DNA of 64,000 nucleotides from Nitrospirota bacterium (GTDB taxonomy: Bacteria > Nitrospirota > UBA9217), in assembly GCA_963751455.1 (NCBI GenBank), contig CAVVUN010000012.1:288001-352000 (forward strand), in the 5' to 3' direction. Positions 15,304 through 34,871 of the stretch are shown here, in pieces. The notes under the pieces are model-generated. The model saw only the letters and a list, made by a program, of their open reading frames with translations, did no database searches and was not told where the DNA came from. The position numbers and the translations under genes were made by a program. The first letter of the stretch is position 1. Every line of letters begins with the position of its first letter.

Positions 15304-16404
15304 TTATGATTTGCTCATTTTACCGCCGAATATCTCCACAATTTTATTTACCAAAGCCGGCAGCGAGGGGTCGCGCGCGCCCATGATAAGAATACAGTCT
15401 TCAGGTTTTGCATCGAGTTTTAATCTGGTCAATAAGTCATCGCGGCTGGTGAGCGCTTGTGCATTGAATGCCGCGGGACCAAGGCCGTTTATGATATCTT
15501 CCGAGGAAATATTTTTTTGCGCCGTGCCTCCCGCATAATCCTAAAAACGGCATTTGAACACGGATGAACACGGTAACAGCGGATCAAAACAATGTGATAG
15601 AGCAAAAAGCCATCTCGCCTTTTGGGTGAATCCATTACTGTTCGTAACTTCCTATAAATCCGTGTTGATCAGATTTTATCCGTGTCCAACTGCTTTTTTC
15701 AGGATAATAGATCGGGAGGAGATAGAGTGAATCATTTGGCCGGAACGCGGTTCGAAAAGTTTCGATGTATTCGTCTTTCAAAAACCGTGTAGGGCCGAAG
15801 CCATGCGGCTGATATACGGCCAGGATGCGTCCGGAAAGGCCTCGGGCTGCCCGAACAACAGCCGCTATTTTTGCCGGATTATGGGCAAAGTCATCAACCA
15901 CATGCACGTTCGCTTTTGTTGCGGTGACGGAAAATCGCCGGGCCACACCCTCATAATTTTTTACCGCATGCGCAAGGGCAGACGGCTCACAAGCGAAATA
16001 CTCGCATACGCAGAGCGCAGCGCACAGGTTTTCAAGATTGTGCTCTCCGGGAAGCGGCAGATGATACTCAGTGCCGCTCCTGAATAATTTGACCAAAGTC
16101 GGGAGGAGTTGCTCCCGGTCCGGCCGCCACGAACCCGAACCGTTTCGGCCGAAGCGCACGGTTGCAGGAAGCGAAGCAAGGACCGGATCGTCGGCGTTGG
16201 AGGCCGTCCAGGAAGATTGCGAAGCCAGCGTTTTGAAGAGTTTCGCGATGTCCTCAATGCTTTTGTGGTCCTTGGAAACATTCAGGATGACGGCCGCTTG
16301 CGGACGATATTTGACCACGGTTCCATCGCTTTCGTCCGCCTCCACCACCAGGAGGTCGGACCCGCCGCTATAAGCGTTTCCGATAAGGCCCTCTTTTTCG
16401 AGCC
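15304..16404 (-). pseudogene. 5'-truncated, MITE-interrupted duplicate of the 3' part of the murC/mpl-like gene at 32952-34871
   Basis: Aligns by eye to 32952-33883 (VEADESD, DDFAHNP, YQPHGF, MGARDPSL); lacks 5' half; interrupted at 15540-15703. Confidence 0.92.
15540..15703. mobile_element. 164-bp MITE, CCT...AGG termini, 5-bp target duplication ATAAT
   Basis: Empty site visible in the intact paralog (ccgc-ATAAT-agatc at ~33183); here ATAAT flanks both ends. Confidence 0.93.
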
Positions 16405-16428: not shown

Positions 16429-18564
16429 TCAACCGATTCCTGGAATCCGCAAGGCTCGGTAAACCCAGAGCGCTTCATGAACGAGTACGGCGCTTAACGT
16501 ATGTGAATCAGGTTTCACATCCTTTGGAACGGTGAAAGAGTACTCCATCAATTGATCCTTGCACGGACCGATTTGTTTAAAAACAATGCGATGACTTACT
16601 TTTTCAGTTAGGCGAATCGCAACAACCGGTGAGCTTTTTGTGGACCAGACAGTATCGTTACAATCATTCACTCGCAGACAAACAACTACTTTTGCCCCTG
16701 CTCGGAGTTCGGATGGCCCCTCAAGCGATAGACGATACGCATTTTCAACCCAAAATTCGATCGGTCCGCAGACCTCGCACTCTCGCTGGATAAGGAGATT
16801 GCCGAGAGACAAGAGATGAGTAGCGGTTTCCCTAACAGTATGACCTGGCAAACATTGTGCCTCTGCCAGACAGGAATGTGAATGTAAGCCGGCATCAGCG
16901 ATAGATCGCCATAAAGCACCCCGACCTTCCCCAATAAACAGCATTTCGCAAAACAGAGTAGCCGCCAGTTCGTCCCACTGCCGAAATCCGAACTGAAGCG
17001 GATTGAGAAGTCGGCCGAGCTCGGGGTGCCACAAAAGCGAACGTTGGCAGCTTCGCACTAAATTCAGTCCTGCTTGCGCTGTTTCACTTATTTCACGGCT
17101 GATCTCTGCCATTCCGGCAAGTAACTCCTGACCGCTATTCGAGCCACTCAATTCCTTAGCGTAATGACGACGAACTGCTCGCTCCACTATGTTTGCATAT
17201 CCCGTTCGATCCAAATAGTGTAGCAACATGCTTGCTAATTTCTCCAACTCGTGACCACAGTTTCTTAGTTTAATTTCTCCGGGCTCGGCACTCTCCGTTA
17301 TAATAACGGCGCCGGTCGAGCCTCCTTGAATTACCGTTTGATCTTTAAGGCCTATTGTAGCAGCTAGGGGAGTTCCGGCTAGTTCAGATGGAAGAGCGAA
17401 TAGCTTAACCTTGGTCGATTGTGAATGCCACTTAGCTTCTTTATTGCCTAAGAGTTGTATTGATGGAGCAGGTCCGCAAGCATCGCCGAAAAGGACGTAT
17501 GGTCTTCTGCCTGTTGCACTCTCCTGAAAATCGTTCAGAAGGCATGCTATCTGTCCAAGTCCGACATTGTCCATTGAAAGAGAGTGACCAAGGGTAAGAT
17601 AATATTCGCTCAGTTCTGAGTTGCACCTGGTGGCAAGAAACGCTGCGGGAAAACCTTCGGCTATTGCAATTACGCTGTTTAGATCCGATGGGTAGAGTTC
17701 TCCGCCGAGCGCAAATCCACCGCATGAATGCAGCAGCAGGTTTCGGGCACTTAAATCCCCGAAGCCAATCGAAGTACGCGTACCAGCCGGTGCGCGCTTG
17801 CATTTACGAGTACCCAAGCCACTACAACCGTTAATAGGCCGATTATCAAGTAATCTTTCCGAGCTTATGCCGGCCCCGCAGAGGACAAGATTGCCTAGCT
17901 TAGCATGCCCGAATGTGCCGTGCGCGAAGACACTTAAGACATTCCAACTAGATTCCCGAATCCAGCGTCGAGCCTCATCCTCCATCCAGAGTATTTCATT
18001 GCAGCCGCTGGAAGTCCATCGTGACATTTTTTCTCGATCGAAATCTATCTCAGCTGAGTCAGGCCAATGAGCGTATTTAGCCAAATAGATCTTGGCCAAT
18101 GAAAAACTTAGACCCTCACTGTCAATTGCAGTAATTATACTCCAGGGACGCCGAAAGTGGACTGCCAATTGTTCAACTTGTGCAAAAGGGAAGTCATCGC
18201 GTAAACCTACGAGAACTGCTGAATCCCACACCGCAGCTTCAACTGAAAGCCAATTTTGTACTTTGGCAACGGGACGCTCCAACAACTGGGCATAGAACCT
18301 GACGATGCCGCTTAGTGCATCGTTTATGAAAAAAATCGGATTTCTATCATTTGTTCTCTTTCTTGGAGCGTCTATTTCACCCTTTTCCACCTGTTCTGAA
18401 GCAATATACCATTTTAAAATAGACTCCCAACGTGCAGATCGACCATCTTTCGGTCGCAGCACCATGGGTCCTCTCGCCGTGCCCTTCTTGAGCTGCTCTT
18501 CGAACGCAGTATGTCTTTCAGTCCAAGTAACCTTGTTGCTCATAACTTTGTCTTTAGTCATCAC
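16429..18564 (-). CDS. 711-aa protein with probable clan CD (caspase/CHAT/gingipain C25-like) His-Cys peptidase domain
   Basis: Beta-strand-preceded VFAHG and LLLHSC motifs and later YVLFGD; the rest is unrecognised. Confidence 0.5.
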   Translation of the reverse strand: MMTKDKVMSNKVTWTERHTAFEEQLKKGTARGPMVLRPKDGRSARWESILKWYIASEQVEKGEIDAPRKRTNDRNPIFFINDALSGIVRFYAQLLERPVAKVQNWLSVEAAVWDSAVLVGLRDDFPFAQVEQLAVHFRRPWSIITAIDSEGLSFSLAKIYLAKYAHWPDSAEIDFDREKMSRWTSSGCNEILWMEDEARRWIRESSWNVLSVFAHGTFGHAKLGNLVLCGAGISSERLLDNRPINGCSGLGTRKCKRAPAGTRTSIGFGDLSARNLLLHSCGGFALGGELYPSDLNSVIAIAEGFPAAFLATRCNSELSEYYLTLGHSLSMDNVGLGQIACLLNDFQESATGRRPYVLFGDACGPAPSIQLLGNKEAKWHSQSTKVKLFALPSELAGTPLAATIGLKDQTVIQGGSTGAVIITESAEPGEIKLRNCGHELEKLASMLLHYLDRTGYANIVERAVRRHYAKELSGSNSGQELLAGMAEISREISETAQAGLNLVRSCQRSLLWHPELGRLLNPLQFGFRQWDELAATLFCEMLFIGEGRGALWRSIADAGLHSHSCLAEAQCLPGHTVRETATHLLSLGNLLIQRECEVCGPIEFWVENAYRLSLEGPSELRAGAKVVVCLRVNDCNDTVWSTKSSPVVAIRLTEKVSHRIVFKQIGPCKDQLMEYSFTVPKDVKPDSHTLSAVLVHEALWVYRALRIPGIG

Positions 18565-19492
18565 CCATCTCTCTATTTTTTACCAGATCGTTCCTTAACT
18601 CCAAAAGGTTTTCAACTTGCTTTTGGTCTTCGCGAGATAAGATAGGGATACGGGTCAGTTTCTCCAACTCTTCCTCTCGATCAAGCAGCCCGAAGCGTAT
18701 CCGCTCGGCTATGTAATCGATCAATATCCGGGGGGCGTGACCGCCGTTCCGCAGCAAAATGTTATAGATACCATAACTGGCCATCAAACAATCAGAATCA
18801 TAGGGTCCGACACCAGGGTCCTCCCAGGGCAGTTCAGCGATTGCACGCTCTATATCCCTCTTTGTAAGAGAATATGCCGCGACTACTCGAATGAAAGTCG
18901 GATCTTTCTGATCTATACAACTCCAGTTCTTGGGAGTATCACCTCCCGTAAAGATGGCTTTGGCGCCATAGCGTTGAGCAACAGTTCTGAAAACTGGAAG
19001 CTTCCACGCAGTCTTGCACGTTTGGCCACAGACTGAACTGCCTTGAATAATCATCTCCCGGAAGGCCTTGTAGGGATAGGAATGGATAAGCAGCCAATCA
19101 ACTTTTAGAAAATCGATAATAGAATTAATATTGGCTCTTGTCTTCACGTTTTTCATGCCTTGGTCCACGGTGAACGCCAGAACTTTGAGCCCTCTCTCAA
19201 CAAGCAGCTTCAGCGCTACCGCACTATCCTTACCGCCTGAAAACGCCAAAATAGCATCGTACTCCGCAGTCTTTGCCTCTTTTAGTGCCTCCTCGAATTC
19301 GCTCATGAGCACTTGAGGATCGATAGGCCTCTCGACGAGAGCAGCACACTGCAAACAGAGAAAGCGTCCCTTCGTTTCAACGAACTTTAATTTATTGTCC
19401 ATTCCCTCCCGGTAGATACAGATTTCACACATTCGACCGCCAGGCAGTGTTGCAGAAATAGTTCCGTTCAGCATTTTTGATTTAGACTCCAT
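18554..19492 (-). CDS. PP-loop (N-type ATP pyrophosphatase) protein, WbpG/WbuX-like amidotransferase architecture
   Basis: N-terminal CxxC...CxxC, AILAFSGGKDS, CxxxC, C-terminal IRFGLLDREE. Confidence 0.75.
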   Translation of the reverse strand: MESKSKMLNGTISATLPGGRMCEICIYREGMDNKLKFVETKGRFLCLQCAALVERPIDPQVLMSEFEEALKEAKTAEYDAILAFSGGKDSAVALKLLVERGLKVLAFTVDQGMKNVKTRANINSIIDFLKVDWLLIHSYPYKAFREMIIQGSSVCGQTCKTAWKLPVFRTVAQRYGAKAIFTGGDTPKNWSCIDQKDPTFIRVVAAYSLTKRDIERAIAELPWEDPGVGPYDSDCLMASYGIYNILLRNGGHAPRILIDYIAERIRFGLLDREEELEKLTRIPILSREDQKQVENLLELRNDLVKNREMGDD

Positions 19493-19520
19493 GACTTTTC
19501 AAGTTCAGAATTTGACTTCA

Positions 19521-21032
19521 TTAAATGCAGTAGGTTCTTAGTTCATCGAGAGCACGACGAGCTTCAATCCGATCATCGAAAGCGAAACGCCGGCCGCTCA
19601 CGAGCTGATAAGTTTCATGTCCCTTGCCGGCAATTAAAACCACCCCTTTTGATCCGGCCCGCATGATTCCCATCCGAATAGCAGCAGCGCGGTCAGTCTC
19701 AACTTCATACTTAAGATTGAGTTGAGACGTTGCTGATAGGTTTGCTTCACTCACTCCGGATAAAATTTCCTCTATTATTGCCCGGGGATCCTCGCACCTT
19801 GGATTATCAGATGTAATAATTACGTGATCGCTAAGATTACATGCGATTGCACCCATCAACGGTCGCTTACTGCGATCGCAGTCGCCTCCGCACCCAAAGA
19901 CGGTCACTAGTTTGCTATTTCCGGATAATGCCCGCAAGGAACCGCATACGTTTTCAAGTGCATCAGGCGTATGGGCATAATCAATAAAAACTCGCGGACC
20001 ATTGACTCCCTGCACCAGTACTCGTTCGAGCCTGCCTGGCACACCATGAAAAGTCGCTATGGCCTCCGCGGACGAATTTAGATCAACACCGAGAGCAAGT
20101 GTTGCGCTGACAGCTGCCATAATATTGTAAACGTTGTAAATGCCGGTCATAGGCGAGACGATGTGAACACTATTAAACCCTTCCGCATCAAGCTGGAACT
20201 TCAACTGCTCTAACGTCATCCCAAGTTTTGACGCCCTTATTGTGGCCCGCCTCTCAATTCCGTACGTCATGAAACGCGAGCTGACCCGCTCAACTAAATG
20301 CCGGCCCCAGAGATCATCTATGTTAATCACCGCCAAAGCTTTAGTCGGAAGCATTTGGAACAACCGTGCCTTTGCCTCGAAATAGGCATCCATGGTGCCG
20401 TGATAATTCAAGTGATCTCGAGTTAAATTTGTAAAAATACCGATTCCGAAGTGAAGGCCATCCACACGATGCTGGCAAAGTGAGTGGGAGGATACTTCAA
20501 TTGCCGCCGTGTTTTGTCCCGTAACACGCATAGCCTCCAGGCATGCATGAATCTCTATGGCTTCGGGAGTAGTGATGCCGCCGTAGAAGGTTTGATTTCC
20601 GACAACCCAATCAACGCTGCCGATCATGCCGCAGCCACGATTGACATGGTTGAGAATATGCCGAATAAGATAACCCGTTGTAGTTTTGCCATTAGTTCCG
20701 GTAATGCCGACAATATCCATCATTAAACTGGGATGGTTATAATAGGCTGAACAGAGGTGTCCAAGTGCTTGACGTGGATTGTTAGCGATAATATGGGGGA
20801 GTTTTGGAGAAAATCGTTTTTTCGCTAAAATTGCGACAGCTCCGTTCCTCACCGCTTGGGATATGGCTGCTAAATAATTTTTATTGTTTTCGTCAGTCGC
20901 AGTGAAAATGAAACCCGGTTCCACGCTACGGGAGTCCAGAGCTATACCGAGAATATCAACATTTGCCGAATTAGTGATGGTAATGTCTGGATAGGACGCG
21001 CTTAGGCGATTAATGAGCGTGTTGAAATTCAT
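19521..21032 (-). CDS. murE: MurE-like Mur ligase (island-borne paralog)
   Basis: DSRSV, GTNGKTT, NLTRDHL, DYAHTPD, FGCGGD, DNPR, AGKGHE; not in a dcw cluster. Confidence 0.88.
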   Translation of the reverse strand: MNFNTLINRLSASYPDITITNSANVDILGIALDSRSVEPGFIFTATDENNKNYLAAISQAVRNGAVAILAKKRFSPKLPHIIANNPRQALGHLCSAYYNHPSLMMDIVGITGTNGKTTTGYLIRHILNHVNRGCGMIGSVDWVVGNQTFYGGITTPEAIEIHACLEAMRVTGQNTAAIEVSSHSLCQHRVDGLHFGIGIFTNLTRDHLNYHGTMDAYFEAKARLFQMLPTKALAVINIDDLWGRHLVERVSSRFMTYGIERRATIRASKLGMTLEQLKFQLDAEGFNSVHIVSPMTGIYNVYNIMAAVSATLALGVDLNSSAEAIATFHGVPGRLERVLVQGVNGPRVFIDYAHTPDALENVCGSLRALSGNSKLVTVFGCGGDCDRSKRPLMGAIACNLSDHVIITSDNPRCEDPRAIIEEILSGVSEANLSATSQLNLKYEVETDRAAAIRMGIMRAGSKGVVLIAGKGHETYQLVSGRRFAFDDRIEARRALDELRTYCI

Positions 21033-21292
21033 GGTATCTGTGTTTTTCTATGCCGCCATTATTGTCGAAAGTTTAATTCAACATTTATCTACCACGCTGC
21101 CCTTCTGTTGACGAGTGCCGCGAAGAGTCTGAGCCAGGCTGAAAGGCTGCCCCTCGCCGGCATTTCTCTCCGCAAAGCTGTAGAATCTTCAACCAACCCA
21201 AAGCACTGGTTGAGGAGCCATAGCTGAGCAAAGTTCTGCCGAGAAAACCATGCTAATGAAGCGAGGGGCCAAAGTTGTTTTTTGCCGATGGA

Positions 21293-21505
21293 CTACCAGT
21301 TCATGATACCGCCACCCCGCACGAAACCTGCACGAGCCAAATCAGCACGAATATTCGCCAGTTTGGCTTTTGCTTCTTGAACTTTCGCCTTAGCTTCATG
21401 GAACTGAGCCAAGGCCTGAAAGTCCTTGGAAACTAAATTTTTGTGCTCCGTTCGGAGGCGGAGCTCCACAATACCACTGGTACTCACTTTCTTCTTTTCT
21501 GCCAT
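21293..21505 (-). CDS. Putative RiPP precursor peptide 2 (70 aa, ends LARAG-FVRGGGIMNW)
   Basis: AAGGAGG RBS; paralog of 21607-21810; located in an RRE/rSAM cluster. Confidence 0.8.
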   Translation of the reverse strand: MAEKKKVSTSGIVELRLRTEHKNLVSKDFQALAQFHEAKAKVQEAKAKLANIRADLARAGFVRGGGIMNW

Positions 21506-21606
21506 CTTCCTGTCCTCCTTTTTTAATTAAGATTCTCCAATAGACACTTCGCACCGTTTGCTGTCCAAATGTTCATTAAGCCATTAATGGCACTGGGCTT
21601 GGTGAT

Positions 21607-21810
21607 TTACCAGTTATCCGATACGTCGCCAAGCACTAAACCCGCACGAGCCAAGTCAGCACGAATATGCGCCAATTTGGCTTTTGCTTCTTGAACTTTC
21701 ACTTTAGCTTCATGGAACTGAGCCAAAGCCTGAAAGTCCTTGGAAACTAATTTTCTGTGCTCCGTACGAAGCTCCTCGATACCGCGAATACCTAATTTCT
21801 TTTCAGCCAT
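21607..21810 (-). CDS. Putative RiPP precursor peptide 1 (67 aa, ends LARAG-LVLGDVSDNW)
   Basis: AAGGAGG RBS; shares LVSKDFQALAQFHEAKxKVQEAKAKLAxIRADLARAG with peptide 2. Confidence 0.8.
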   Translation of the reverse strand: MAEKKLGIRGIEELRTEHRKLVSKDFQALAQFHEAKVKVQEAKAKLAHIRADLARAGLVLGDVSDNW

Positions 21811-21869
21811 TTTTTTCTCCTCCTTTCTTGAATTAAATTAAACACAAGAGATTTTGATCTCAGCAATCC

Positions 21870-23390
21870 CTATATATGATTACTAAATCGATTTGAATCG
21901 TTCAAAACAAAGTTCTTATGACCAACAGCCGCAGCTGAGGCGCCTGCCATCCTCCCAAAAAAAGCGCCAGATAACAGACCAGTTCCGGCTAAATAGTTAT
22001 GATTGAAAAGGCCTCCCACCATTTCTCCGCAAGCGAAAAGGCCGGAGATAGGTTTCTGATTTGAATCAAGCACCTGAGCCATCTCATTTATTTTTACACC
22101 TCCATAAGTAAAAGTGATACCACCAGTAACGGGATATGCAAAAAAAGGCGGATCCTCAAGCCGGCGCGCCCAATTAGATTTAGGTGGTTGAATACCCGCA
22201 GCCGTCAAACCATCCAATTGGGTCGGGTCGAACTCACCTTGGCGCTGAGCCCCGTTATATTGCTTAAGCACTTCACATGCCCTAGCTTGATTTATTGGCA
22301 ACATCTTAACGAGGGATCCCAAGGAATCAGCGAGGATTGGTTTCCCGGTCTTATAGCGTTTCTCCAGCAGCGGCACGGCATTCGCGTCAAATATCTGGTA
22401 GGCTATGCCATTGGGCTGGCTTAGGATGATTCGACCCATCTTTGCATACGTGAAAAACTGAAAGTCTTCTCCTTCGTCACAAAAGCGCTGGCCGAGGCGA
22501 TTCAGCATCACTCCAAAAGGATAGGAAAGCCGGTTGGACTTATCAGTCAATGAACGGGAGCCGAAAAATGAAGTGCCCGCGTCAATGGGTGTAGAATGAC
22601 AGTGCGTGAAATTACCGTATCGAAGCGCGTTTAAGTCAAAAGCCATGCGCAAACCATCTCCGGTATTATAGGCAGTGCCTCGAACTCTCGCTTGAGCCCA
22701 TTGCCTACCCAAATAGTGCGCACGCCAAGCAGCATTAGACTCAAACCCCCCACAGGCCAGTATAATAGCTTTAGCGGTTAATTGAGAATATCCTTTCGGG
22801 CTCCGGGCAAGAACACCCGTAACCCTCGACCGATTATCCCGGGTTAGCGATACTGCAGCTGTTTGATATAGCACCTCTATTCCTCGTTCAGCAGCAATGT
22901 TGAACCACATTCGTGATAGTCCTACGCCTCCATCGCGTACCTGAACCAAAGCTCCAGGCGACCATCCCACCTTATTTTTGTGGCAAATAGCGCTCAAGGA
23001 TACGGCCAATTCCATAGCTATGCCTTGGTTTACCAACCAGCGGACTGTGTCATAAGAGTGATTGACCAACAGCATGCTCAAATGTAAATCGATTTGACGA
23101 TGAGTAAGGCGCTGTAGATCCTCCCAAAATTGTTGAGCTGTATAAGATGTTATCTCCTCGAAAAAGCCAGGAACTTGACGTTCGGCATCAGGTAACAGTG
23201 GCCGTAGATCGTTTCTCGAATCGAAGGCGAAACGCAATAGCCCTCCGCTGAAGTAAGTATTTCCACCACGAAAATGTTCAGGTGCTTTCTCGAGAACAAT
23301 AACTCGCTTCGCGCCATTTTCGTGGGCGGATACGGCGGCAGCCATAGCGGCGTTCCCAGCGCCAACGATTATTACGTCAAAATCAGACAT
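21870..23390 (-). CDS. FAD-dependent oxidoreductase, TcuA/CobZ-like (succinate dehydrogenase/fumarate reductase flavoprotein superfamily)
   Basis: VIIVGAGNAA, EKAP..RGGNT, LACGGFESN, NTGDG, GITFTYGG, GLFACGE; no tcuB/tcuC nearby. Confidence 0.85.
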   Translation of the reverse strand: MSDFDVIIVGAGNAAMAAAVSAHENGAKRVIVLEKAPEHFRGGNTYFSGGLLRFAFDSRNDLRPLLPDAERQVPGFFEEITSYTAQQFWEDLQRLTHRQIDLHLSMLLVNHSYDTVRWLVNQGIAMELAVSLSAICHKNKVGWSPGALVQVRDGGVGLSRMWFNIAAERGIEVLYQTAAVSLTRDNRSRVTGVLARSPKGYSQLTAKAIILACGGFESNAAWRAHYLGRQWAQARVRGTAYNTGDGLRMAFDLNALRYGNFTHCHSTPIDAGTSFFGSRSLTDKSNRLSYPFGVMLNRLGQRFCDEGEDFQFFTYAKMGRIILSQPNGIAYQIFDANAVPLLEKRYKTGKPILADSLGSLVKMLPINQARACEVLKQYNGAQRQGEFDPTQLDGLTAAGIQPPKSNWARRLEDPPFFAYPVTGGITFTYGGVKINEMAQVLDSNQKPISGLFACGEMVGGLFNHNYLAGTGLLSGAFFGRMAGASAAAVGHKNFVLNDSNRFSNHI

Positions 23391-23469
23391 AAAACCTCTG
23401 TTAAAAACATCAAAGAACTATGAATAACAGCTAGTTGTCAATCAACTTCAACGGTTGCTAAAAATAAAT

Positions 23470-25164
23470 TTAGTCCCGCATCTTTCTAGGTTGAACGGTT
23501 GTATGGCCAGAAAATAACCATATTTCGCGTTCACGGGGCAGATTGTTGACATCAACATTAGCAGGAGTGTCTATAAATTTTTTTACATTTTCCCCTAAAT
23601 GCAAGGCGATCAATGAAGCCATATCCTCTTTCGACGGAACTGGTATCAGGATTTGTGCACCGAGAAGCTTCATCATGTCCATCGTTTTCGCATTGTTAAA
23701 GGCACAGGTATGTGCATCGTCATAGAGGCAGAGTAATACATCTACCGGCATAAGTGCAGAAATCTCATCGTGAGATAATGAACGTGTCAATCCGCCAATA
23801 TAACAAAACCGGAAGCCATCGAACTCGATGACTGCTATCGGAGATTGATAGACTCCTCCCGAAATCAAACTCTCGTCCCGGTTAATTAGCTGTATTGAGC
23901 AAAAGTCATAATTTATGATGTCGACGGCTCTCTTCCTGTTTACGTTAGAAGCGCCCAAGGGTGTTTGTAACTGATGTTTTTTCGACCAAATACCATCTCT
24001 GTCAAGCACTACCACATCTTCTTGCTGTTCAATTAGTCGAGAGCTTTTTCTGCGGGGGTCCAGAATGACCAGGCCTGGCTTCGATGCCGATTGAAGTTCA
24101 ATAAACCCATCACGACATCTAATACTGTACTTGCCGGCTGATCCTGAAACATAAGGCTTACGCGCCGATGAAACTGATAGCGGGCAGTACAAATCCGCCT
24201 CATCAGATCGTAGCCCCCAACCGACTGCACATGCTCTACAGCCTCCGAGACAATTAGAAAGGTGACCGCAGCTAGAGCAGGTATCAGGCACATTGAGAGT
24301 ACGCAATGCATTCATCCGCGCGCCATAAAACACTTCAGTAAGTCGATGAGTGACGAGATTGCCTAATGGCAATTTAATATAACCGCAAGGGACAAGGTTC
24401 CCCAGGGCATCAACGTGCAAATGCTTACTGAAGCAGCCTGGCTGAGTCGAAGGTGTCGTCCCCTGCAAAAACTCAAAACAGGATGAGCCAAAAGTGATCT
24501 GTCTGTATTTTGACATCGCAATGGCGCTCTTCACGACCTCGGCAACCTGCTCCGCCGAGGGACAAAGCTCATGACTTGCACGGCCCGACGGCACTACGGG
24601 GCGGATTTTAAATATCGCAGCGCCTGCATTGTGGGCGGAATCAGCGACCTGCTTCATTTCTGCGATATTGACTCGTGTAAGCGTCATGCGTACGAGGACC
24701 TGGAATCCCATACTTGAAGCCGTCTCAATATTGGCCAGCGTACGTGCAAATGCTCCCGGTGTGTTCCGATGCCAATCATGAGTAGGTCCAAATCCGTCTA
24801 GGCTCACGTGCATCGTAAAAATGCCTGCATCGAGCATACGGTCCAATTCTTCAGAATTCAAATTATAGGCGTTCGTGAAAAGTATTGATGCGATGCCGGC
24901 GTCAATCAGATGCCTTCCAATAGCGCATACAAGATTTAATTCTAAGGTAGGTTCTCCGCCGGTGATGGCCACTTCTTTCGTATCGAGCTGATGAAGATCC
25001 TCAATAAGCTTTGACCTAAAGCGGGAGAAGTTAAAAACAGCACCTTTTTTCGGCGCCGGGCGCGCACAATGCCGGCATTTCATGTTGCACTGGTCGTTTA
25101 TGCGAATGCGGAGACTCTGGAGTCGCGCATATGGAACGGTCGGAAGCATGTTAGGTTTCAACAC
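23470..25164 (-). CDS. Radical SAM/SPASM protein with C-terminal degenerate metallo-beta-lactamase-like domain
   Basis: CNMKCRHC, TGGEP, SLDG; SPASM C..VPC..CSSC...CLGGCRAC..YCP; C-terminal FDGFRFCYIGGL..VDVLL..ILIPV. Confidence 0.85.
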   Translation of the reverse strand: MLKPNMLPTVPYARLQSLRIRINDQCNMKCRHCARPAPKKGAVFNFSRFRSKLIEDLHQLDTKEVAITGGEPTLELNLVCAIGRHLIDAGIASILFTNAYNLNSEELDRMLDAGIFTMHVSLDGFGPTHDWHRNTPGAFARTLANIETASSMGFQVLVRMTLTRVNIAEMKQVADSAHNAGAAIFKIRPVVPSGRASHELCPSAEQVAEVVKSAIAMSKYRQITFGSSCFEFLQGTTPSTQPGCFSKHLHVDALGNLVPCGYIKLPLGNLVTHRLTEVFYGARMNALRTLNVPDTCSSCGHLSNCLGGCRACAVGWGLRSDEADLYCPLSVSSARKPYVSGSAGKYSIRCRDGFIELQSASKPGLVILDPRRKSSRLIEQQEDVVVLDRDGIWSKKHQLQTPLGASNVNRKRAVDIINYDFCSIQLINRDESLISGGVYQSPIAVIEFDGFRFCYIGGLTRSLSHDEISALMPVDVLLCLYDDAHTCAFNNAKTMDMMKLLGAQILIPVPSKEDMASLIALHLGENVKKFIDTPANVDVNNLPREREIWLFSGHTTVQPRKMRD

Positions 25165-25292
25165 TGATTGCTCCTTTTGATCTTGTCATCACTAGTTGCA
25201 ATATCTCCGCGGCTGGTCACTGTGTATTCGCGCAAAAATTTTAAGCTTTTAATTGGTCTCGCCTAAGATTCTGCAATTCGCCCGCGTCATAA

Positions 25293-26333
25293 TCAAAATT
25301 CCAGAGAGTTTGGCTTAATATTCTGACAAGATGGTACGCTTACCGTGAGGTCATTGAAAAAATTGAAACCCAGCGCCCTGCATGCCGAACAAAAATATTG
25401 ATCGTCACAATTTCCACATTTTCCTTGATATTTTCCAGGCGTTTGTTTTCGTAGAAGTGCCAAAAGTTCAGATGACCAAATTTTTTTCAAATCGTCATTA
25501 ACAAGATTTCCCAAGGCGGATGCCAAAACAGGTTTAAAATGCTCGCAAGGTCGAACTGTGCCATCAGGGGATATTGATAATTTGAACCTACCCGCAGAAC
25601 AAAGCTTCAGATGATCATTTTCCGGACTGCGACTGCAACTGCTGTATCGTAATGGTAACTTGCTAACTGTTGTCTTCGCGCGTTGCCACAAAGCGAATGC
25701 CGCCGACTCATCTTGTGCAAATATATGCTGTCCAAATTTAAACGGTACATAATATTGCATGATAACTCCGCGCAGTCGGTCTGGCAAAGCAGATATAAAC
25801 TCGGCTGGTTCAGGGCATCCTGCTAAAAGTGACCAGACAACCATCACATTAAGACCAGCATCCATTGCATGTATCATAGCCGAGCAAGTCTCATCGAAGC
25901 TGCCTGCCCGCGTTTGCTTGTCGTGGTAAACGCGGTTGCCAAATAATTCAAATATAATATTTCCAACGCCGGTTTTTCCCAATTTAAACCAAAAATCCGC
26001 TTCAGGCATTGGGCCACCTGTAATAAGGTCGCAATCGAGGTCATCTTTAGTTGACTCCTCCAGTATCTCTGGGAGCCACGGGAAAGCATTACAGCCCGGT
26101 GCGATAAATAACACATGCCGAATATTGTGCTCCGACAGAACCAGTAAAACCTTTCGTATGATTCTTTGCTGTTCTTTTGGCTCATAACCTTGGAAAAAGT
26201 AGGGGCAATGTTTGCATTCAAACGCACATTTCCAAGCGAGCTGGATATGGGCCTCAATTGCAACGCTCGGTAGTATGGATAAAAAATCTTTAATCCTCTG
26301 ATCGACTTGTTGATTCATTTTATCAACCAGCAA
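25293..26333 (-). CDS. Radical SAM/SPASM protein (divergent core)
   Basis: CAFECKHC; no clear GGEP; SPASM CSAG..VRPC..CGNC...CSACRA..SC. Confidence 0.8.
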   Translation of the reverse strand: MLVDKMNQQVDQRIKDFLSILPSVAIEAHIQLAWKCAFECKHCPYFFQGYEPKEQQRIIRKVLLVLSEHNIRHVLFIAPGCNAFPWLPEILEESTKDDLDCDLITGGPMPEADFWFKLGKTGVGNIIFELFGNRVYHDKQTRAGSFDETCSAMIHAMDAGLNVMVVWSLLAGCPEPAEFISALPDRLRGVIMQYYVPFKFGQHIFAQDESAAFALWQRAKTTVSKLPLRYSSCSRSPENDHLKLCSAGRFKLSISPDGTVRPCEHFKPVLASALGNLVNDDLKKIWSSELLALLRKQTPGKYQGKCGNCDDQYFCSACRALGFNFFNDLTVSVPSCQNIKPNSLEF

Positions 26334-27427
26334 TAAGGGTCGGGCGCGTATAAATCTCCTGAACTAATGTAAGCCATGGCACGACATCCGCCACCGCATT
26401 GCATAAAGCTGCTGCAATTGCAGCAACGTGGATCGATTCCATCTCTAGCCCTCAGAGCATCCATAACTGGATGCCGCGACAAGATATCATCTATATGGTT
26501 AGATGCCAGTGTACCCAGCGTCAAGGGGAAAACCGGGCATGGATAAGCATGTCCTTGAGCTGTATAATGCAACATATAACCTGCTCCGCACTGAGCTCGT
26601 TCGTCGATGGATCTTTCTGCGAAAAGAGCTGCACAGTGTGGCAGCTCCAAGTGAATACCTATATGAAAAGTAGAAATCTTTTTGATATCTAAAATAAAAC
26701 GCTTTAATGATTCTCCGGACAAAATAGGACCAGACAGGCCGGCTTGTCTGCCCAGAGGCATAAGTGGGAATAGGATTAAGGTGTTGACACCCAGTTCATC
26801 TAGCATGTGAATCATTTGCTGGATATCACTTTGATTATGGCGAGAAACGGCTGTTTGAACAGCCACTCTGACGCCTTTTCTAACAAGGCGCTCGATCGCA
26901 GACCAGGCTTTAATGAACGTGCCCGGGCCTCTCACAGCCTCATGAGCCTTGGATAGCCCGTCCAACGAGACCTTAATACCATAAATATTCATAGAAATGA
27001 GTTGCTCGATTCGTTCATCTGAAAGGAGAATTCCATTGGTTGTTAAACCCCAGAACATTTGCTTACGAGTTGCATAAGTGCCGAACGACTTGACTATATT
27101 CCACTCAAGTAGCGGCTCTCCACCGGTCAAGTCGAGAATAGGTGTGCGTTCACCCATCTGGTTAAAAAGTTCTGCTACCATCAATTCTGACCAAGAGGAA
27201 GTCGAACTCGCAGAGCTGTCGACGGCGCAATGGGTACACGAAAGATTGCATCGTGCAGTTATTTGAACGCTAATGGAAGTAAGGGGCGCTGATTCGAATG
27301 CCATTGTCGGAGAACTCCTGTAATGCTGCGATGAATTTGGGGGATAACCAACTATTGGGTATCCCCCATGTGGTAATGCAGCTAGCGTTTTAGAGACAAT
27401 GGGCAATGTTGACCATACAACCCGCAA
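26315..27427 (-). CDS. Radical SAM/SPASM protein
   Basis: CNLSCTHC, TGGEPL, TTNG, VSLDG; SPASM CGAG..YPC..CCNC...CGGGCRA..DPYC; true start may be downstream (MAFESAP). Confidence 0.88.
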   Translation of the reverse strand: MRVVWSTLPIVSKTLAALPHGGYPIVGYPPNSSQHYRSSPTMAFESAPLTSISVQITARCNLSCTHCAVDSSASSTSSWSELMVAELFNQMGERTPILDLTGGEPLLEWNIVKSFGTYATRKQMFWGLTTNGILLSDERIEQLISMNIYGIKVSLDGLSKAHEAVRGPGTFIKAWSAIERLVRKGVRVAVQTAVSRHNQSDIQQMIHMLDELGVNTLILFPLMPLGRQAGLSGPILSGESLKRFILDIKKISTFHIGIHLELPHCAALFAERSIDERAQCGAGYMLHYTAQGHAYPCPVFPLTLGTLASNHIDDILSRHPVMDALRARDGIDPRCCNCSSFMQCGGGCRAMAYISSGDLYAPDPYCWLIK

Positions 27428-27494: not shown

Positions 27495-28319
27495 CTAAAG
27501 AGGCCCTGGGCATAATTTATCCCTGCCTGTGCGTCTTCTGCGGGCTCGGCATCCCCCGCCACAATCCTTAATAGCACACTTTAAACATTCATCGGGAACC
27601 CGAGACCAGGTGAGAAGCCTCTCATCATTCCAAATTTCGCTCAAGCTTTTGTTGTCTAAGGAGCCCAGGCAAAGGCGTGAGCGTCGACATGGACGAACTT
27701 CAGCCTGCTCCGAAACAAACAGGGCAAATCGACCAGCTGGGCATTTACTTCCGACATTTACAAAATCAGGGAAAAAACGCTGCATTAATACCAGATCTGA
27801 TATGACAGGTATCGAGCAATTGTCGGAAAATTCAGATACTGCATAAAGAAATTGTCGGTAAGTATCAACCGAAGCGTGTGGAAGCTCCTCGATGTTCACG
27901 GCTGCCACAGATCTTGCTGACAGCCATTCGATCCAAACCTCTTGATTCGCCTTAGGAGGCAAGTAACCAACAATGACAATACTAAAGCCAAAATCCAGGA
28001 GCATGGCGATTTTTTCCTTGAGACTTTTATCGGGCGAAAGACTTGTATCAACGCTGACTCGCAATGTACATGGAGCAAGCCGGCGCCAGGATGGACGAGG
28101 TTGCAAATCCTCGTATGCGAGGGTCAACACAAGTTCATAACCATGTATTACACTTAAATCCAAAGCCGTTTCAATTGGACCCTTGCATACCATGTTAATA
28201 ATGGAAATTCCTCCAGCAAGTATCATTGACAAGCGTTCGGTCCACAGCGTGTGGTCGGGCTGCAAAGGCAAATCTACCTCGGCAATCATAGGCGCTATCA
28301 GGCGTTCGCTTTCGGACAT
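27495..28319 (-). CDS. SPASM-domain protein lacking the radical SAM CxxxCxxC motif
   Basis: C-terminal CPAG..VRPC..CLKC...CGGGCRA..DKLC; only isolated Cys in N-terminal 170 aa. Confidence 0.75.
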   Translation of the reverse strand: MSESERLIAPMIAEVDLPLQPDHTLWTERLSMILAGGISIINMVCKGPIETALDLSVIHGYELVLTLAYEDLQPRPSWRRLAPCTLRVSVDTSLSPDKSLKEKIAMLLDFGFSIVIVGYLPPKANQEVWIEWLSARSVAAVNIEELPHASVDTYRQFLYAVSEFSDNCSIPVISDLVLMQRFFPDFVNVGSKCPAGRFALFVSEQAEVRPCRRSRLCLGSLDNKSLSEIWNDERLLTWSRVPDECLKCAIKDCGGGCRARRRRTGRDKLCPGPL

Positions 28320-29269
28320 AAAGGATCGTTACCCCAAATTTCCTTTGTGGCGCTGTAGGCTGCTGCTCGGCAACCTCTGCATATCGTGCAAAAATCGCAA
28401 GTATAGCACTTGGCTTCAGATGGAACGGTGCGCAGCGATGCCATTAATTCAGAAGTTTGCCATGCGGCGGTAAATCCTACATCGAAAACATTACGATCAG
28501 AAATACGCAGTTTCGCACAGGGTAGCATAGAGCCATCACTGGAGATTACAACCGCCCATCTGCCGGCGGAACAGCCACTCCAGATATCGTTGGGAATATC
28601 TTTGATATATTTTTTTGGAGTTAATAAATTAAGCAAAGGTTCTTCACAAGATAAATTCTCATGCGATTGCATCCATCCCGAGATCGTCTTCAAGACATGA
28701 TCATACTCGACTACTCCGAGAGAAAAATCATAATCAAGCTTGCCGGGTAAGGCGCAAATTCTCTGGAAACCTGCAGGAACTCCAAGACGAACGAACAGAT
28801 TTAAGAATTTGTCTATTTTAGCGATATTTCGCGACGAAAGTGTCACGAGAAAAGTAATTGGAAGGCCTGCATCTCGCAAGCGCAAGACTTGTTCACACAC
28901 TGCTTGCGCCCTTTCATCCTCTGTTGGAAGAGCATGAAGACTGAGTTGAATAAAAGAAATTTTGTTGTGAAGACGGCTAAAGAAATTTTCAGGAATTCGG
29001 AGTCCATTTGTCAAAAGACCTGGTCGCCAGCCAAACTGATTAGCTTTCCCGACCAGTTCCTCAATATGCGGATATTGCAAACACTCGCCCCCTGTAAAAA
29101 CGATTCGCTCTACTCCCGCCTTTTTAGCCTCAGCCAGAAGTTGAGTGCCTTCAAACAGCGGCATATCTGTAATATGGCGTTCAGAGCCTAAATAACAAAA
29201 GGGGCAATCCAAGTCACATCGTGTAGTTACCTCCAGCTCGAGTAAACTTGGCGCTTGCAAATTCAGCAT
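28298..29269 (-). CDS. Radical SAM/SPASM protein
   Basis: CDLDCPFC, TGGEC, LTNG; SPASM CSAG..LPC..CYTC...CRGCRA..DPLC. Confidence 0.88.
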   Translation of the reverse strand: MLNLQAPSLLELEVTTRCDLDCPFCYLGSERHITDMPLFEGTQLLAEAKKAGVERIVFTGGECLQYPHIEELVGKANQFGWRPGLLTNGLRIPENFFSRLHNKISFIQLSLHALPTEDERAQAVCEQVLRLRDAGLPITFLVTLSSRNIAKIDKFLNLFVRLGVPAGFQRICALPGKLDYDFSLGVVEYDHVLKTISGWMQSHENLSCEEPLLNLLTPKKYIKDIPNDIWSGCSAGRWAVVISSDGSMLPCAKLRISDRNVFDVGFTAAWQTSELMASLRTVPSEAKCYTCDFCTICRGCRAAAYSATKEIWGNDPLCPKANA

Positions 29270-29270
29270 T

Positions 29271-29594
29271 TTACAATCCCTTTTCGATCCGGATTAGTTT
29301 GTTATCATTCATTTCCTGGAGAAAACCAGATAACTCTTCTATTAACTCCTTTCTTTCTGGAATTTCAACGTTACCGATTTTTTCTAAATTATAAGTAATA
29401 TCGTCGCAAATTTTGCCGAACGTTGTCGGTTTATCCAATAGACGCCATACCATTGCTTCGAACTCGCCAAATTCGTAGAAGCCGTGAAAATCCGGTCGTT
29501 CTCCTTTGTATCTTGGGAAAACCAGTATCCTCCCATCCTCAGTATCTCGCCACTGATGGCTCTCTAGTCTATACACTAACGTTGAGTCATCCAT
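29271..29594 (-). CDS. PqqD-family stand-alone RiPP recognition element (RRE)
   Basis: 107 aa; three strands then helices with MVWRLLDKPTTFGKICDDI...Y...ELSGFLQEMNDNKLI pattern; directly upstream of rSAM genes; AGGAGG RBS. Confidence 0.8.
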   Translation of the reverse strand: MDDSTLVYRLESHQWRDTEDGRILVFPRYKGERPDFHGFYEFGEFEAMVWRLLDKPTTFGKICDDITYNLEKIGNVEIPERKELIEELSGFLQEMNDNKLIRIEKGL

Positions 29595-32951: not shown

Positions 32952-34871
32952 TTATAACTTTCTCATTTCGCCGCCGAACATTTCCACAACCTTATTTACC
33001 AAAGCCGTCAGCGAGGGGTCGCGCGCTCCCATGATAAGCACGCAGTCTTCCGGTTTCGCATCGAGTTTTAATGTTTTCAATAACTCGTCTCGGCTGTTGA
33101 GGGCTTGCGCATTGAATGGCGCGGGACCAAGGCCGTTTATGATATCTTCCGAGGAAATATTTTTTTGCGCCGTGCCTCCCGCATAATAGATCGGGAGGAG
33201 ATAGAGTGAATCATTTGGCCGGAACGCGGCTCGAAAAGTTTCGATGTATTCGTCTTTCAAAAACCGTGTAGGGCCGAAGCCATGCGGCTGATATACGGCC
33301 AGGATGCGTCCGGAAAGGCCTCGGGCTGCCCGAACAACAGCCGCTATTTTTGCCGGATTATGGGCAAAGTCATCAACCACATGCACGTTCGCTTTTGTTG
33401 CGGTGACGGAAAATCGCCGGGCCACACCCTCATAATTTTTTACCGCATGCGCAAGGGCAGACGGCTCGCAAGCGAAATACTCGCATACGCAGAGCGCAGC
33501 GCACAGGTTTTCAAGATTGTGCTCTCCGGGAAGCGGCAGATGATACTCAGTGCCGCTCCTGAATAATTTGACCGAAGTCGGGAGGAGTTGCTCCCGGTCC
33601 GGCCGCCACGAACCCGAGCCGTTTCGGCCGAAGCGCACGGTTGCAGGAAGCGAAGCAAGGACCGGATCGTCGGCGTTGGAGGCCGTCCAGGAAGATTGCG
33701 AAGCCAGCGTTTTGAAGAGTTTCGCAATGTCCTCAATGCTTTTGTGGTCCTTGGAAACATTCAGGATGACCGATGCTTCCGGACGATATTTGACCACGGT
33801 TCCATCGCTTTCGTCCGCCTCCACTACCAGGAGCTCGGACCCGCCGCTGTATGCATTGCCGATAAGGCCCTGTTTTTCGAGCCTGCGCAGGCCCGCGCCG
33901 CTGATCAACGATGGCGACTTTCCGCATGCGGTCAGGAATTCGAATATCATAGCAGTAACCGTCGACTTGCCGCTTGTGCCGGCGACTGCAATGGTCTTTT
34001 TTAGTCCGATGAGAGCGCTCAGCAGATCAGAGCGATGGACGATGGGAATGCCGCGGCTGCGGGCGGCTACAATATCCGGATTCGATTCTTCTATGGCGGT
34101 TGAAACGCAAATGACATGGGTATCCGCACTCACACCGGAACCGTCCTGCTGAACGATGGAGCACCCGAGGCTTTCAAGCGATTGCCGGATCGGGGCGGTA
34201 TCCTCGCTTGCATGGAAACGATCGGAACCCGAGACCGTGATTCCCTGAAAGCGCAGGTATTGCGCGAGAGCGCTCATGCCGCTGCCGAAAACTCCGGTAA
34301 AATGAACGTTGCGGCATGGATGGCCGTTGATGACAATCGCGGGAGGATCGATATAGACCAGCGTACCTTCTCCGACGGTTTCAAACAGCCGGGTAATATC
34401 GAGATTGCGCATGCAGACGCACCCGTACGACAGGGGAGTTCCGATCAGGTCTTCTCTGCCGGTGCCGTGGATATAAATATAACGCTCATAGGAATCCACG
34501 CCCCCGCCCTTATTGATGCCCTCTTCAAGACCTTCGAGCCGCAGAATGCGGGTCAGGATGAGATTATCCCGGGTAAGACGGTGGTCCCAGTCGATGCCGG
34601 TATCCTCGCGGTCCGTGAAAATGCGACCTACGCGCGCGCCGGCTCCGAACTTTTCCCTGATCCGATGAAGACCGAGCGGCGTTTTGAGCGAGTTTTCCCG
34701 ATTGCCGATGCCGAAGCGGGAGGTCGAGGCGTCATATCGCTCGACGATGGTATCGTTCGAGCAGACAAGGAGCGTCTGTGTCTCGATGGATACGATGAGA
34801 AATAGATCGTGCGGGGCCGGTAAAAACTTCCGTATTTTTTCGTGAATACAGCGTAATCGGACTGTTTCCAT
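32952..34871 (-). CDS. Fusion of YkuD (L,D-transpeptidase fold) domain and MurC/Mpl-like Mur ligase
   Basis: N-terminal TPLGLH, RYIYIHGT, SYGCVCM; then GVFGSGMSALA, GTSGKST, VEADESD, DDFAHNP, YQPH; no signal peptide. Confidence 0.88.
   Translation of the reverse strand: METVRLRCIHEKIRKFLPAPHDLFLIVSIETQTLLVCSNDTIVERYDASTSRFGIGNRENSLKTPLGLHRIREKFGAGARVGRIFTDREDTGIDWDHRLTRDNLILTRILRLEGLEEGINKGGGVDSYERYIYIHGTGREDLIGTPLSYGCVCMRNLDITRLFETVGEGTLVYIDPPAIVINGHPCRNVHFTGVFGSGMSALAQYLRFQGITVSGSDRFHASEDTAPIRQSLESLGCSIVQQDGSGVSADTHVICVSTAIEESNPDIVAARSRGIPIVHRSDLLSALIGLKKTIAVAGTSGKSTVTAMIFEFLTACGKSPSLISGAGLRRLEKQGLIGNAYSGGSELLVVEADESDGTVVKYRPEASVILNVSKDHKSIEDIAKLFKTLASQSSWTASNADDPVLASLPATVRFGRNGSGSWRPDREQLLPTSVKLFRSGTEYHLPLPGEHNLENLCAALCVCEYFACEPSALAHAVKNYEGVARRFSVTATKANVHVVDDFAHNPAKIAAVVRAARGLSGRILAVYQPHGFGPTRFLKDEYIETFRAAFRPNDSLYLLPIYYAGGTAQKNISSEDIINGLGPAPFNAQALNSRDELLKTLKLDAKPEDCVLIMGARDPSLTALVNKVVEMFGGEMRKL

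What the first reader, a model, noticed from the sequence alone, without database searches (positions are those of the whole stretch)
21293..21810. Two paralogous precursors with conserved helical leader and variable 10-residue cores both ending in NW
Seen: near-identical middle (LVSKDFQALAQFHEAKxKVQEAKAKLAxIRADLARAG), then divergence to LVLGDVSDNW and FVRGGGIMNW, equal in length and sharing only Val2, Gly4 and the terminal Asn-Trp. Both have AAGGAGG RBSs, and neither has Cys, so thioether chemistry is excluded. Inference: the leader binds the RRE, and the terminal Asn-Trp is the modified site (C-C or C-N crosslinking, decarboxylation or ring tailoring), conceptually like mycofactocin or the scaffold-peptide pearlins, although no LanB-like PEARL gene is present.
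Basis: partly seen in the sequence, partly recalled or inferred. Interest (0 to 1): 0.85.

Follow-up and report, generated by a model that had tools for sequence, protein, structure and literature searches.

The report
Tryptophan-tipped precursors with gingipain-fold enzyme
Two duplicated small genes encode helical peptides ending in tryptophan inside an enzyme-rich island, and tryptophan-ended peptides recur beside relatives of the island's unnamed, predicted gingipain-fold protein in other bacteria, so they likely mark an undescribed route to tryptophan-derived natural products.

Summary
In detail: two paralogous ORFs (67 and 70 aa, 74% identical, AAGGAGG RBSs) with a conserved helical middle and divergent 10-residue ends. 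They lie in a 16.5-kb low-GC island with a weak RRE, four radical SAM/SPASM genes plus a SPASM-only gene, a TcuA-like flavoprotein, MurE, a PP-loop ATPase and a second ValRS.

It belongs to an unannotated family (302 representatives) whose predicted N-terminal domain matches gingipain (Z 18.1) and keeps His-Gly and Cys. Of 15 non-NRPS loci of this family, 9 carry a small ORF ending in Trp; the 5 others fetched sit beside standalone NRPS A-T genes instead. Trp is the shared feature. Asn is not (Ser, Ala, Arg elsewhere), and the tailoring enzymes differ between loci.

Best reading (0.5): the peptides are scaffolds whose encoded C-terminal Trp is modified and then released by the gingipain-fold enzyme, pearlin-like but without a PEARL. 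Rivals are a crosslinked multi-residue core (0.28) or a transpeptidase (0.15). No chemistry, binding or expression was shown. Nine literature searches and the scan's notes gave no description of the family.

The parts
21607..21810 (-). Precursor/scaffold peptide B, 67 aa, single Trp at the C-terminus
21293..21505 (-). Precursor/scaffold peptide A, 70 aa, single Trp at the C-terminus
21819..21825 (-). AAGGAGG ribosome-binding site of peptide B
21514..21520 (-). AAGGAGG ribosome-binding site of peptide A
16429..18564 (-). 711-aa protein of an unannotated family: predicted gingipain/C25 (clan CD) domain at about 70-365 with H214-G215 and C280, extra conserved H219/C228/C246/C254, a helical bundle, a Cys-rich motif and an Ig-like C-terminal domain
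   Evidence: (no family)
18554..19492 (-). PP-loop ATP pyrophosphatase (SGGKDS), weakly WbuX/N-acetyl-sugar amidotransferase-like, Cys-rich
   Evidence: (TIGR03573 E 1e-14, below cut-off)
19521..21032 (-). Second MurE-type ligase (39% to host MurE); Arg of the GGDRD motif replaced by Cys, DNPR intact
21870..23390 (-). TcuA-like FAD-dependent dehydrogenase
   Evidence: NF006130, 516 bits, cut-off 369
23470..25164 (-). Radical SAM/SPASM enzyme with a C-terminal metallo-beta-lactamase-like domain
25293..26333 (-). Radical SAM/SPASM enzyme, CxxxCxxC present
26315..27427 (-). Radical SAM enzyme, CxxxCxxC present, with SPASM-like cysteines
27495..28319 (-). SPASM-domain protein lacking CxxxCxxC (pseudo-rSAM)
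28298..29269 (-). Radical SAM/SPASM enzyme, CxxxCxxC present
29271..29594 (-). Probable standalone RRE (PqqD-like), weak
   Evidence: searches (PF05402 E 0.003; NF033536 E 0.0018), both below cut-off; 111 and 133 inconclusive
29672..32317 (-). Second, alternative-type valine-tRNA ligase; the host has its own valS elsewhere
   Evidence: (NF000540 above cut-off)
32952..33883 (.). Upstream copy of the roughly 930-bp direct repeat (3' part of the LD-transpeptidase-MurC fusion gene) bounding the island
15304..16404 (.). Downstream copy of the direct repeat (98% and 89% identical), interrupted at 15535-15708 by a 174-bp multicopy element

Best explanation
The two ORFs are likely ribosomally made helical scaffold peptides whose encoded C-terminal Trp is likely modified by the island's enzymes and then likely cut off by the neighbouring 711-aa protein, which is predicted to have a gingipain (clan CD) peptidase fold. 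Shown: the ORFs, their selection pattern, the operon and island, the 711-aa family with conserved His-Gly and Cys, and the recurrence of Trp-ended small ORFs beside that family. Predicted: the fold. Inferred: (1) the RRE and the enzymes grip the conserved helix; (2) the four rSAM/SPASM enzymes and the SPASM-only partner do radical chemistry on the indole or side chain, and the TcuA-like flavoprotein desaturates next to the carboxylate; (3) the PP-loop ATPase and perhaps MurE activate the free C-terminal carboxylate and add an amine or amino acid; (4) the clan CD enzyme releases the Trp-derived product, alone or with a few residues; (5) the second ValRS is self-resistance or a Val-tRNA supply. 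The varied tailoring genes at other loci would give different products from the same peptide-plus-release core.
For: The constrained helix and free end fit a scaffold. Each peptide has one Trp, at the very end. An HMM built only from 7 foreign peptides ranks the two window ORFs 1st and 2nd of 29,876 small host ORFs (E 0.022 and 0.074, next 1.0); the reverse HMM picked out those peptides and the L014 frame before I had seen its peptide. All 6 new homologues end in Trp. 9 of 15 non-NRPS family loci have a Trp-ended small ORF. With an ATG+SD filter, near-gene ORFs end in Trp 5 of 5 versus 1 of 14 far (p 5e-4), or 7 of 17 versus 2 of 54 at the looser SD (p 4e-4); host background is 28 of 1401. These loci fall on several separate branches of the enzyme tree. 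Positions -2 to -5 are not conserved. Model pLDDT 90, pTM 0.89; top matches are gingipain RgpB Z 18.1 (rmsd 3.2, 249 aligned) and Kgp Z 17.2, then separase and CHAT. H214 is invariant and G215 and C280 at least 90% conserved in 77 sequences. Precedent for Trp tailoring on a scaffold followed by proteolytic release: PMC12715798 (abstract and introduction); PMC10885120 (passages).
Against: No product, cleavage site, binding or expression is shown. The significant enrichment rests on a filter chosen after seeing the data; unfiltered (all 20 loci, three start codons) it is 9 of 91 versus 26 of 474, p 0.15. 6 of 15 non-NRPS loci show no Trp-ended ORF: three are contigs under 4 kb and one operon runs off its contig, but L017 (9 kb) has none and L030, with full flanks, has only a helical candidate ending in Gly. 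L013, L014 and L018 are one peptide lineage, so not independent. All 5 actinomycete loci pair the family with an NRPS A-T gene and no such peptide, which a pure carboxypeptidase role does not explain. Similarity of the window peptides to that lineage is modest and could partly reflect helix composition. The catalytic dyad was assigned from the recalled clan CD motif, not from a residue-level superposition. An encoded Trp cannot be reloaded without a PEARL, so the scaffold would be single-use. One L005 peptide looks like an ordinary leader plus a Tyr/Cys/Trp core.
Confidence: 0.5

Rival explanations
1. A conventional leader-core RiPP: the rSAM/SPASM enzymes crosslink the terminal Trp to other residues of the 10-residue core (cyclophane or biaryl type), and the gingipain-fold protein is a new kind of leader peptidase cutting near the end of the helix, for example after Arg.
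For: Four intact rSAM/SPASM genes and an RRE-like gene; both cores are exactly 10 residues with no indel; gingipain R cuts after Arg (recalled) and Arg lies just before both cores; the L005 peptide has a double-glycine-like leader and a Tyr/Cys/Trp core beside a P450 and a B12-rSAM.
Against: The cores share only 4 of 10 residues, and across loci only the last Trp. The nearest peptide relatives have no homologue of these rSAM/SPASM genes in the fetched DNA. No rSAM reaches the cut-off of any NCBIfam maturase family.
Confidence: 0.28
2. The gingipain-fold protein is a transacylase or ligase, not a hydrolase. It forms a Cys acyl-enzyme from a peptide (Trp as leaving group or as the acyl residue) or from an NRPS carrier, and couples it to an amine such as a nucleoside-like acceptor, giving an aminoacyl conjugate that may inhibit a tRNA synthetase.
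For: All 5 actinomycete loci place the gene just after a roughly 570-610-aa standalone NRPS gene with a carrier motif. One member is fused to ATP-grasp and two to HAD domains. Neighbours include deazapurine, HisG-like, TruD, NTP-transferase and class II tRNA-synthetase-like genes. An asparaginyl peptide ligase shares the fold (5h0i, Z 6.8). Fosfazinomycin shows C-terminal conjugation on a scaffold plus a Val-tRNA step (PMC13622209, abstract and discussion).
Against: This island has no nucleoside-pathway genes and no recognisable tRNA-dependent transferase. The NRPS-linked members are few and closely related (four form one clade), and two have altered His-Gly motifs.
Confidence: 0.15
3. The small proteins are not substrates but helical partners (inhibitor, trans-acting pro-domain or chaperone) of the peptidase, with the terminal Trp as a docking residue; the rSAM enzymes act on something else.
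For: Gingipains carry inhibitory pro-domains (top match 4ief is the pro- and mature-domain complex); the peptides are long amphipathic helices; the tailoring genes vary while the peptide-peptidase pairing stays.
Against: An RRE-like gene and five SPASM-family genes in the same operon point to a peptide substrate, and these are the operon's only small ORFs with a strong RBS that I saw. Duplication with a varied end is typical of precursors. The partner peptides at different loci are not homologous to each other apart from one lineage.
Confidence: 0.07

Closest known systems
Pearlins: ammosamide (amm) scaffold-peptide pathway
   Same: A Trp at the C-terminus of a ribosomal scaffold is tailored and then released by dedicated proteases (PMC12715798, abstract and introduction).
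   Different: There a PEARL appends Trp from Trp-tRNA and release is by TldD/E plus a dipeptidase; described pearlin clusters use TldD/E or M50 proteases (PMC10885120, passages). Here Trp is encoded, no PF04738 gene is in the island, the predicted protease is clan CD, and tailoring is by rSAM/SPASM.
Fosfazinomycin (fzm) and nitrilobacillin (pes) pathways
   Same: An ATP-dependent asparagine-synthetase-like enzyme acts on the C-terminal carboxylate of a ribosomal peptide; fzm has an RRE and a Val-tRNA-dependent step (PMC13622209, abstract and discussion; PMC13060819, abstract).
   Different: The PP-loop protein here is WbuX-like, not AS-like. There are no phosphonate, hydrazine or MNIO genes, and the fzm authors found no dedicated peptidase.
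GeoRSP, SynChlorMet and mycofactocin RRE + rSAM/SPASM cassettes
   Same: A standalone PqqD-like gene with rSAM/SPASM enzymes; GeoRSP also has a SPASM-only partner (family names; cassette make-up recalled).
   Different: All scores are far below cut-offs (for example GeoRSP rSAM 101 against 400, MftC 104 against 265); none is known to me to include a gingipain-fold protein or paired Trp-ended helices.
Gingipains RgpB/Kgp (peptidase family C25, clan CD)
   Same: Predicted fold of residues about 70-365 (Z 18.1 and 17.2) and a His-Gly...Cys motif.
   Different: About 10% identity; no PF01364 hit in 36 members scanned; an extra conserved His/Cys set, a helical bundle and a Cys-rich motif; encoded in biosynthetic clusters rather than being a secreted protease.

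Membership tests
RiPP precursor (general) | Short ORF with RBS clustered with peptide-modifying enzymes | tested here: met
RiPP precursor (general) | Conserved recognition region with a variable end | tested here: met
   2 replacements in 37 codons versus 6 in 10
RiPP precursor (general) | RRE in the cluster | tested here: inconclusive
   PqqD hits below cut-off; PDB search and single-sequence model uninformative
RiPP precursor (general) | Peptide is translated and post-translationally modified | not testable with these tools
   needs proteomics or co-expression
Pearlins | PEARL (PF04738, LanB-like) in the cluster | tested here: not met
   None of the 13 island ORFs hit PF04738. The genome-wide search was also empty but had no positive control.
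Pearlins | Product is one modified C-terminal residue released by a carboxypeptidase | not testable with these tools
   inferred only from the conservation pattern
Pearlins | TldD/E or M50 protease | tested here: not met
   none among the island ORFs
Mycofactocin | MftC above family cut-off and an MftA-type precursor | tested here: not met
   TIGR03962 best 103.9 bits against cut-off 265; the peptides hit no NCBIfam or Pfam model
GeoRSP / SynChlorMet cassettes | TIGR04303/TIGR04304 or TIGR04250/TIGR04251 above cut-off | tested here: not met
   best 101.3/400, 23.7/300, 96.4/400, 92.6/400
Sactipeptides / ranthipeptides | Cys in the core | tested here: not met
   0 Cys in both peptides
Clan CD cysteine peptidase (C25-like), 711-aa protein | Caspase/gingipain fold | tested here: met
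   predicted model: Z 18.1 to 4ief, 17.2 to 4rbm, next row 10.7
Clan CD cysteine peptidase (C25-like), 711-aa protein | His-Gly ... Cys catalytic dyad | tested here: inconclusive
   H214, G215 and C280 are conserved at the expected strand ends, but the motif is recalled and was not superposed residue by residue
Clan CD cysteine peptidase (C25-like), 711-aa protein | Match to Pfam Peptidase_C25 (PF01364) | tested here: not met
   0 of 36 members scanned, of 150 listed; the Atlas gave only an automatic C25 name and 0.77-0.78 leads
Clan CD cysteine peptidase (C25-like), 711-aa protein | Proteolytic activity | not testable with these tools
   needs an assay

The most novel reading that the evidence does not exclude
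The 711-aa family is the class-defining enzyme of a widespread, undescribed natural-product class in which one gingipain-fold enzyme off-loads or transfers an aromatic amino acid from either of two interchangeable carriers: a ribosomal helix with an encoded terminal Trp, or an NRPS A-T didomain. It would be a direct bridge between RiPP and NRPS logic. This island would be its most radical-SAM-rich member and would make a Trp-derived inhibitor of valyl-tRNA synthetase.
Probability: 0.2. Interest if true: 0.92.

Novelty: new variant of a known kind. Interest (0 to 1): 0.76.

Why it matters
It gives a sequence marker, a family of at least 302 clusters at 50% identity with no Pfam hit in the 36 members scanned, for a set of biosynthetic loci that domain-based mining would not group. 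The review of RiPP proteases I searched has no mention of C25, gingipain, caspase or legumain, so a clan CD release enzyme would be new to that list. The system is directly testable: short synthetic substrates, a predicted catalytic Cys, one conserved residue to mutate, and four rSAM/SPASM enzymes aimed at a Cys-free end, which promises new Trp chemistry. The second ValRS offers a target hypothesis.

Tried and rejected
Direct homologue search with peptide A found only the two window proteins; 0 of 63 genomes of the host family matched; the Atlas gave no hit at 0.8 or above.
A metagenome scan with the two-sequence alignment of the 711-aa protein found none, nor did viral contigs. Own-phylum sample: 1 of 300 other genomes gave a 43-position match at E 7e-7, not counted as a member. 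L005's phylum: 1 new of 400.
No RNA holder was listed, which is no evidence on expression. Complex prediction of peptide with the 711-aa protein was not available, so nothing was folded. The fold search of the RRE model was not available; the model itself had pLDDT 49.
No unusual RNA structure or terminator-like site around the two ORFs (best z -1.3).
The first tree run did not finish. FastTree on 47 rows and IQ-TREE on 39 rows, with 8 long-branch or fragment rows left out, have a weak backbone. L014 is mislabelled 'none' in both. The one-clade test for the window enzyme with the L013/L014/L018 group gave p-AU 0.39, which neither shows nor rejects it.
Rejected: Asn-Trp as an invariant motif, and so legumain-type cleavage after Asn as the family rule; mycofactocin, GeoRSP, SynChlorMet and pearlin membership.
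Literature searches listed no description of this family. I read only listings for most hits. PMC12235509 passages concern DNA-modification islands and are not relevant. No supplements were read, subscription journals are mostly absent, and genome-mining supplements could list these clusters.
The scan's notes held nothing for this genome, the 711-aa protein, the peptide family or two word searches.

Full report
Observation. The two ORFs exist as described on the minus strand: 21607-21810 (67 aa) and 21293-21505 (70 aa), 74% identical, each with AAGGAGG 8 nt before the ATG, no Cys, and one Trp, at the end. Over residues 24-60 the copies differ by 2 replacements and 5 silent changes; over the last 10 codons by 6 replacements and 1 silent change. 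This fits a real gene with a constrained helix and a free end. The shared Asn-Trp is inherited, so the pair alone cannot show that it is conserved.

Surroundings. In order of transcription the cluster holds an alternative-type ValRS, a weak PqqD-like RRE, four radical SAM genes with CxxxCxxC and one SPASM-only gene, a TcuA-like flavoprotein, the two peptides, a second MurE, a WbuX-like PP-loop ATPase and a 711-aa ORF with no Pfam or NCBIfam hit. No rSAM reaches a named family's cut-off. The block 16405-32951 has GC 0.457 against 0.526 and 0.541 for its flanks. It is bounded by a roughly 930-bp direct repeat of the 3' part of a murC fusion gene, one copy interrupted by a 174-bp element with 52 near-identical copies in the genome. 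The peptides and the island ValRS were found in 0 of 63 family genomes. The host has its own valS and murE. The cluster is therefore likely an acquired island.

The overlooked gene. Peptide A had no outside homologue by word-indexed search, so I followed the 711-aa protein. It had one close hit (33%). A two-sequence profile found 302 representatives at E up to 0.001, of which 150 were listed. None of 36 scanned had a Pfam hit above cut-off on the shared part; extra domains were HAD (2 members, one weak) and ATP-grasp (1). In 77 aligned members H214, H219, C228, C246, C254, G359 and C595 are invariant, and G215 and C280 are at least 90% conserved. The model is confident (pLDDT 90, pTM 0.89) and its N-terminal half matches gingipain RgpB (Z 18.1, rmsd 3.2, 249 residues) and Kgp (Z 17.2), followed by separases and CHAT proteases. 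The Atlas independently listed a cluster automatically named 'C25 family cysteine peptidase' at 0.95. I read H214-G215 and C280 as the clan CD dyad from the recalled motif; the other His/Cys residues may bind a metal (inference).

Related loci. Scans gave 1 genome locus, 13 metagenome loci, 1 further genome locus and 8 plasmid-collection records, of which I fetched 5. Of the 15 non-NRPS loci, 9 carry a small ORF ending in Trp: L005, L007, L008, L012, L013, L014, L015 and L018 within 1 kb of the gene, and L016 at the head of its operon. Six do not: L009, L010 and L011 are contigs under 4 kb, the L006 operon runs off its contig, L017 has none, and L030 has a helical candidate ending in Gly. Without filtering the excess is not significant (9 of 91 near versus 26 of 474 far, p 0.15, all 20 loci). 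With ATG starts, a Shine-Dalgarno motif and short frames, a filter chosen after seeing the data, it is 7 of 17 versus 2 of 54 (p 4e-4), or 5 of 5 versus 1 of 14 (p 5e-4), against a host background of 28 of 1401. That filter drops L007 and L014 and counts L016 as far. The Trp-peptide loci lie on several branches of the enzyme tree (39 of 47 rows, weak backbone).

One of these peptide lineages (L013, L014, L018 and P0161-P0166, all ending in Arg-Trp) resembles the window pair. An HMM from 7 of them ranks the window ORFs first and second of 29,876 small host ORFs (E 0.022, 0.074; next 1.0), and the reverse HMM hit those peptides and the L014 frame. The similarity is modest. Across 11 peptides the last residue is Trp in all (they were picked on that), the penultimate is Ser 4, Ala 3, Asn 2, Arg 2, and positions -3 to -5 vary. 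So Trp, not Asn-Trp, is the shared feature.

The tailoring genes are not shared. None of the window's other proteins hit loci L005-L018 at 1e-3. Among 67 hand-picked ORFs from those loci, Pfam found HisG-like, nucleotidyl-transferase, class II tRNA-synthetase-like, TruD, PLP aminotransferase, 2OG-Fe(II) oxygenase, B12-rSAM, P450 and methyltransferase genes. All 5 actinomycete loci instead place the gene after a standalone NRPS A-T gene, with no Trp-ended ORF nearby, in two cases among deazapurine genes. Their A-domain pocket residues look like aromatic-residue codes to me from recall; this was not tested.

Mechanism. The simplest account is a scaffold peptide whose terminal Trp is tailored and then released by the clan CD enzyme (0.5). 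The ammosamide pathway is the precedent for Trp tailoring on a scaffold and proteolytic release (PMC12715798, abstract and introduction). Fosfazinomycin and nitrilobacillin show ATP-dependent chemistry at a peptide's C-terminal carboxylate (PMC13622209, abstract and discussion; PMC13060819, abstract). Every chemical step here is inferred. Rivals are a conventional crosslinked core with a new leader peptidase (0.28), a transacylase shared with NRPS carriers (0.15) and a non-substrate partner helix (0.07). That the ORFs are peptide substrates of this cluster, under any of the first three readings, I put at about 0.9.

Comparison and novelty. It works most like a pearlin but fails membership: no PEARL and no TldD/E or M50 protease among the island genes (the genome-wide PF04738 search lacked a positive control). 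Mycofactocin, GeoRSP and SynChlorMet scores are far below cut-off. A review of RiPP proteases has no occurrence of C25, gingipain, caspase or legumain (PMC10885120, term search and passages). Nine searches listed no description of this family; supplements and most subscription papers were not seen. The scan's own notes had nothing on it; one note on a different rSAM cluster came up.

Verdict. Real, and more interesting than first read: a likely undescribed family of peptide-based pathways marked by a gingipain-fold protein and a C-terminal Trp. New variant of a known kind; interest 0.76.

Noticed in passing
window 15304-16404 and 32952-33883: The island is bounded by a roughly 930-bp direct repeat of the 3' end of an LD-transpeptidase-MurC fusion gene; no integrase was among the island ORFs, so it may have entered by homologous recombination.
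   Followed up: partly
window 15535-15708 and 34923-35096: A 174-bp non-coding element with imperfect inverted ends; 52 copies at 95% identity or more in the genome (MITE-like).
   Followed up: partly
window 19521-21032: The island MurE has Cys in place of the Arg of the GGDRD motif found in host MurE, with DNPR intact; it may have altered specificity, or this may be a sequencing error.
   Followed up: partly
G000 C3:167518-169603 and C2:141141 onward: Host valS and a leuS-like gene read in more than one frame, which suggests indel errors in the assembly; if host valS were truly broken, the island ValRS would be the working copy.
   Followed up: no
L019-L022, L027: Streptomyces plasmid and Nonomuraea clusters pair the gingipain-fold family with a standalone NRPS A-T gene; two also carry QueD/QueE/FolE/QueC deazapurine genes and a phosphoribosyltransferase.
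   Followed up: partly
L013:12157-16935, L014:2188-6989: Arg-Trp-ended peptides beside HisG-like and nucleotidyl-transferase genes (plus class II tRNA-synthetase-like and HIT in L013, NUDIX in L014), suggesting ribosylation or nucleotidylation of a Trp product.
   Followed up: no
L006:8008-11363, L016:3440-9606, L017:5512-6552: A recurring cassette of radical SAM, PLP aminotransferase and two 2OG-Fe(II) oxygenases (L016; in L006 the rSAM is a fragment without a Pfam hit), and TruD-like genes (L016, L017), beside the family gene.
   Followed up: no
L005:1919-12166: A Polyangiaceae locus with two family genes, a B12-rSAM, a P450 and three Trp-ended small ORFs.
   Followed up: partly
L030:11278-11478 (-): A 66-aa helical ORF overlapping or facing the start of the family gene and ending in Gly, not Trp; a possible exception.
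   Followed up: partly
window 35219-37235: Two tandem S11 D-Ala-D-Ala peptidase genes next to the murC fusion, outside the island.
   Followed up: no
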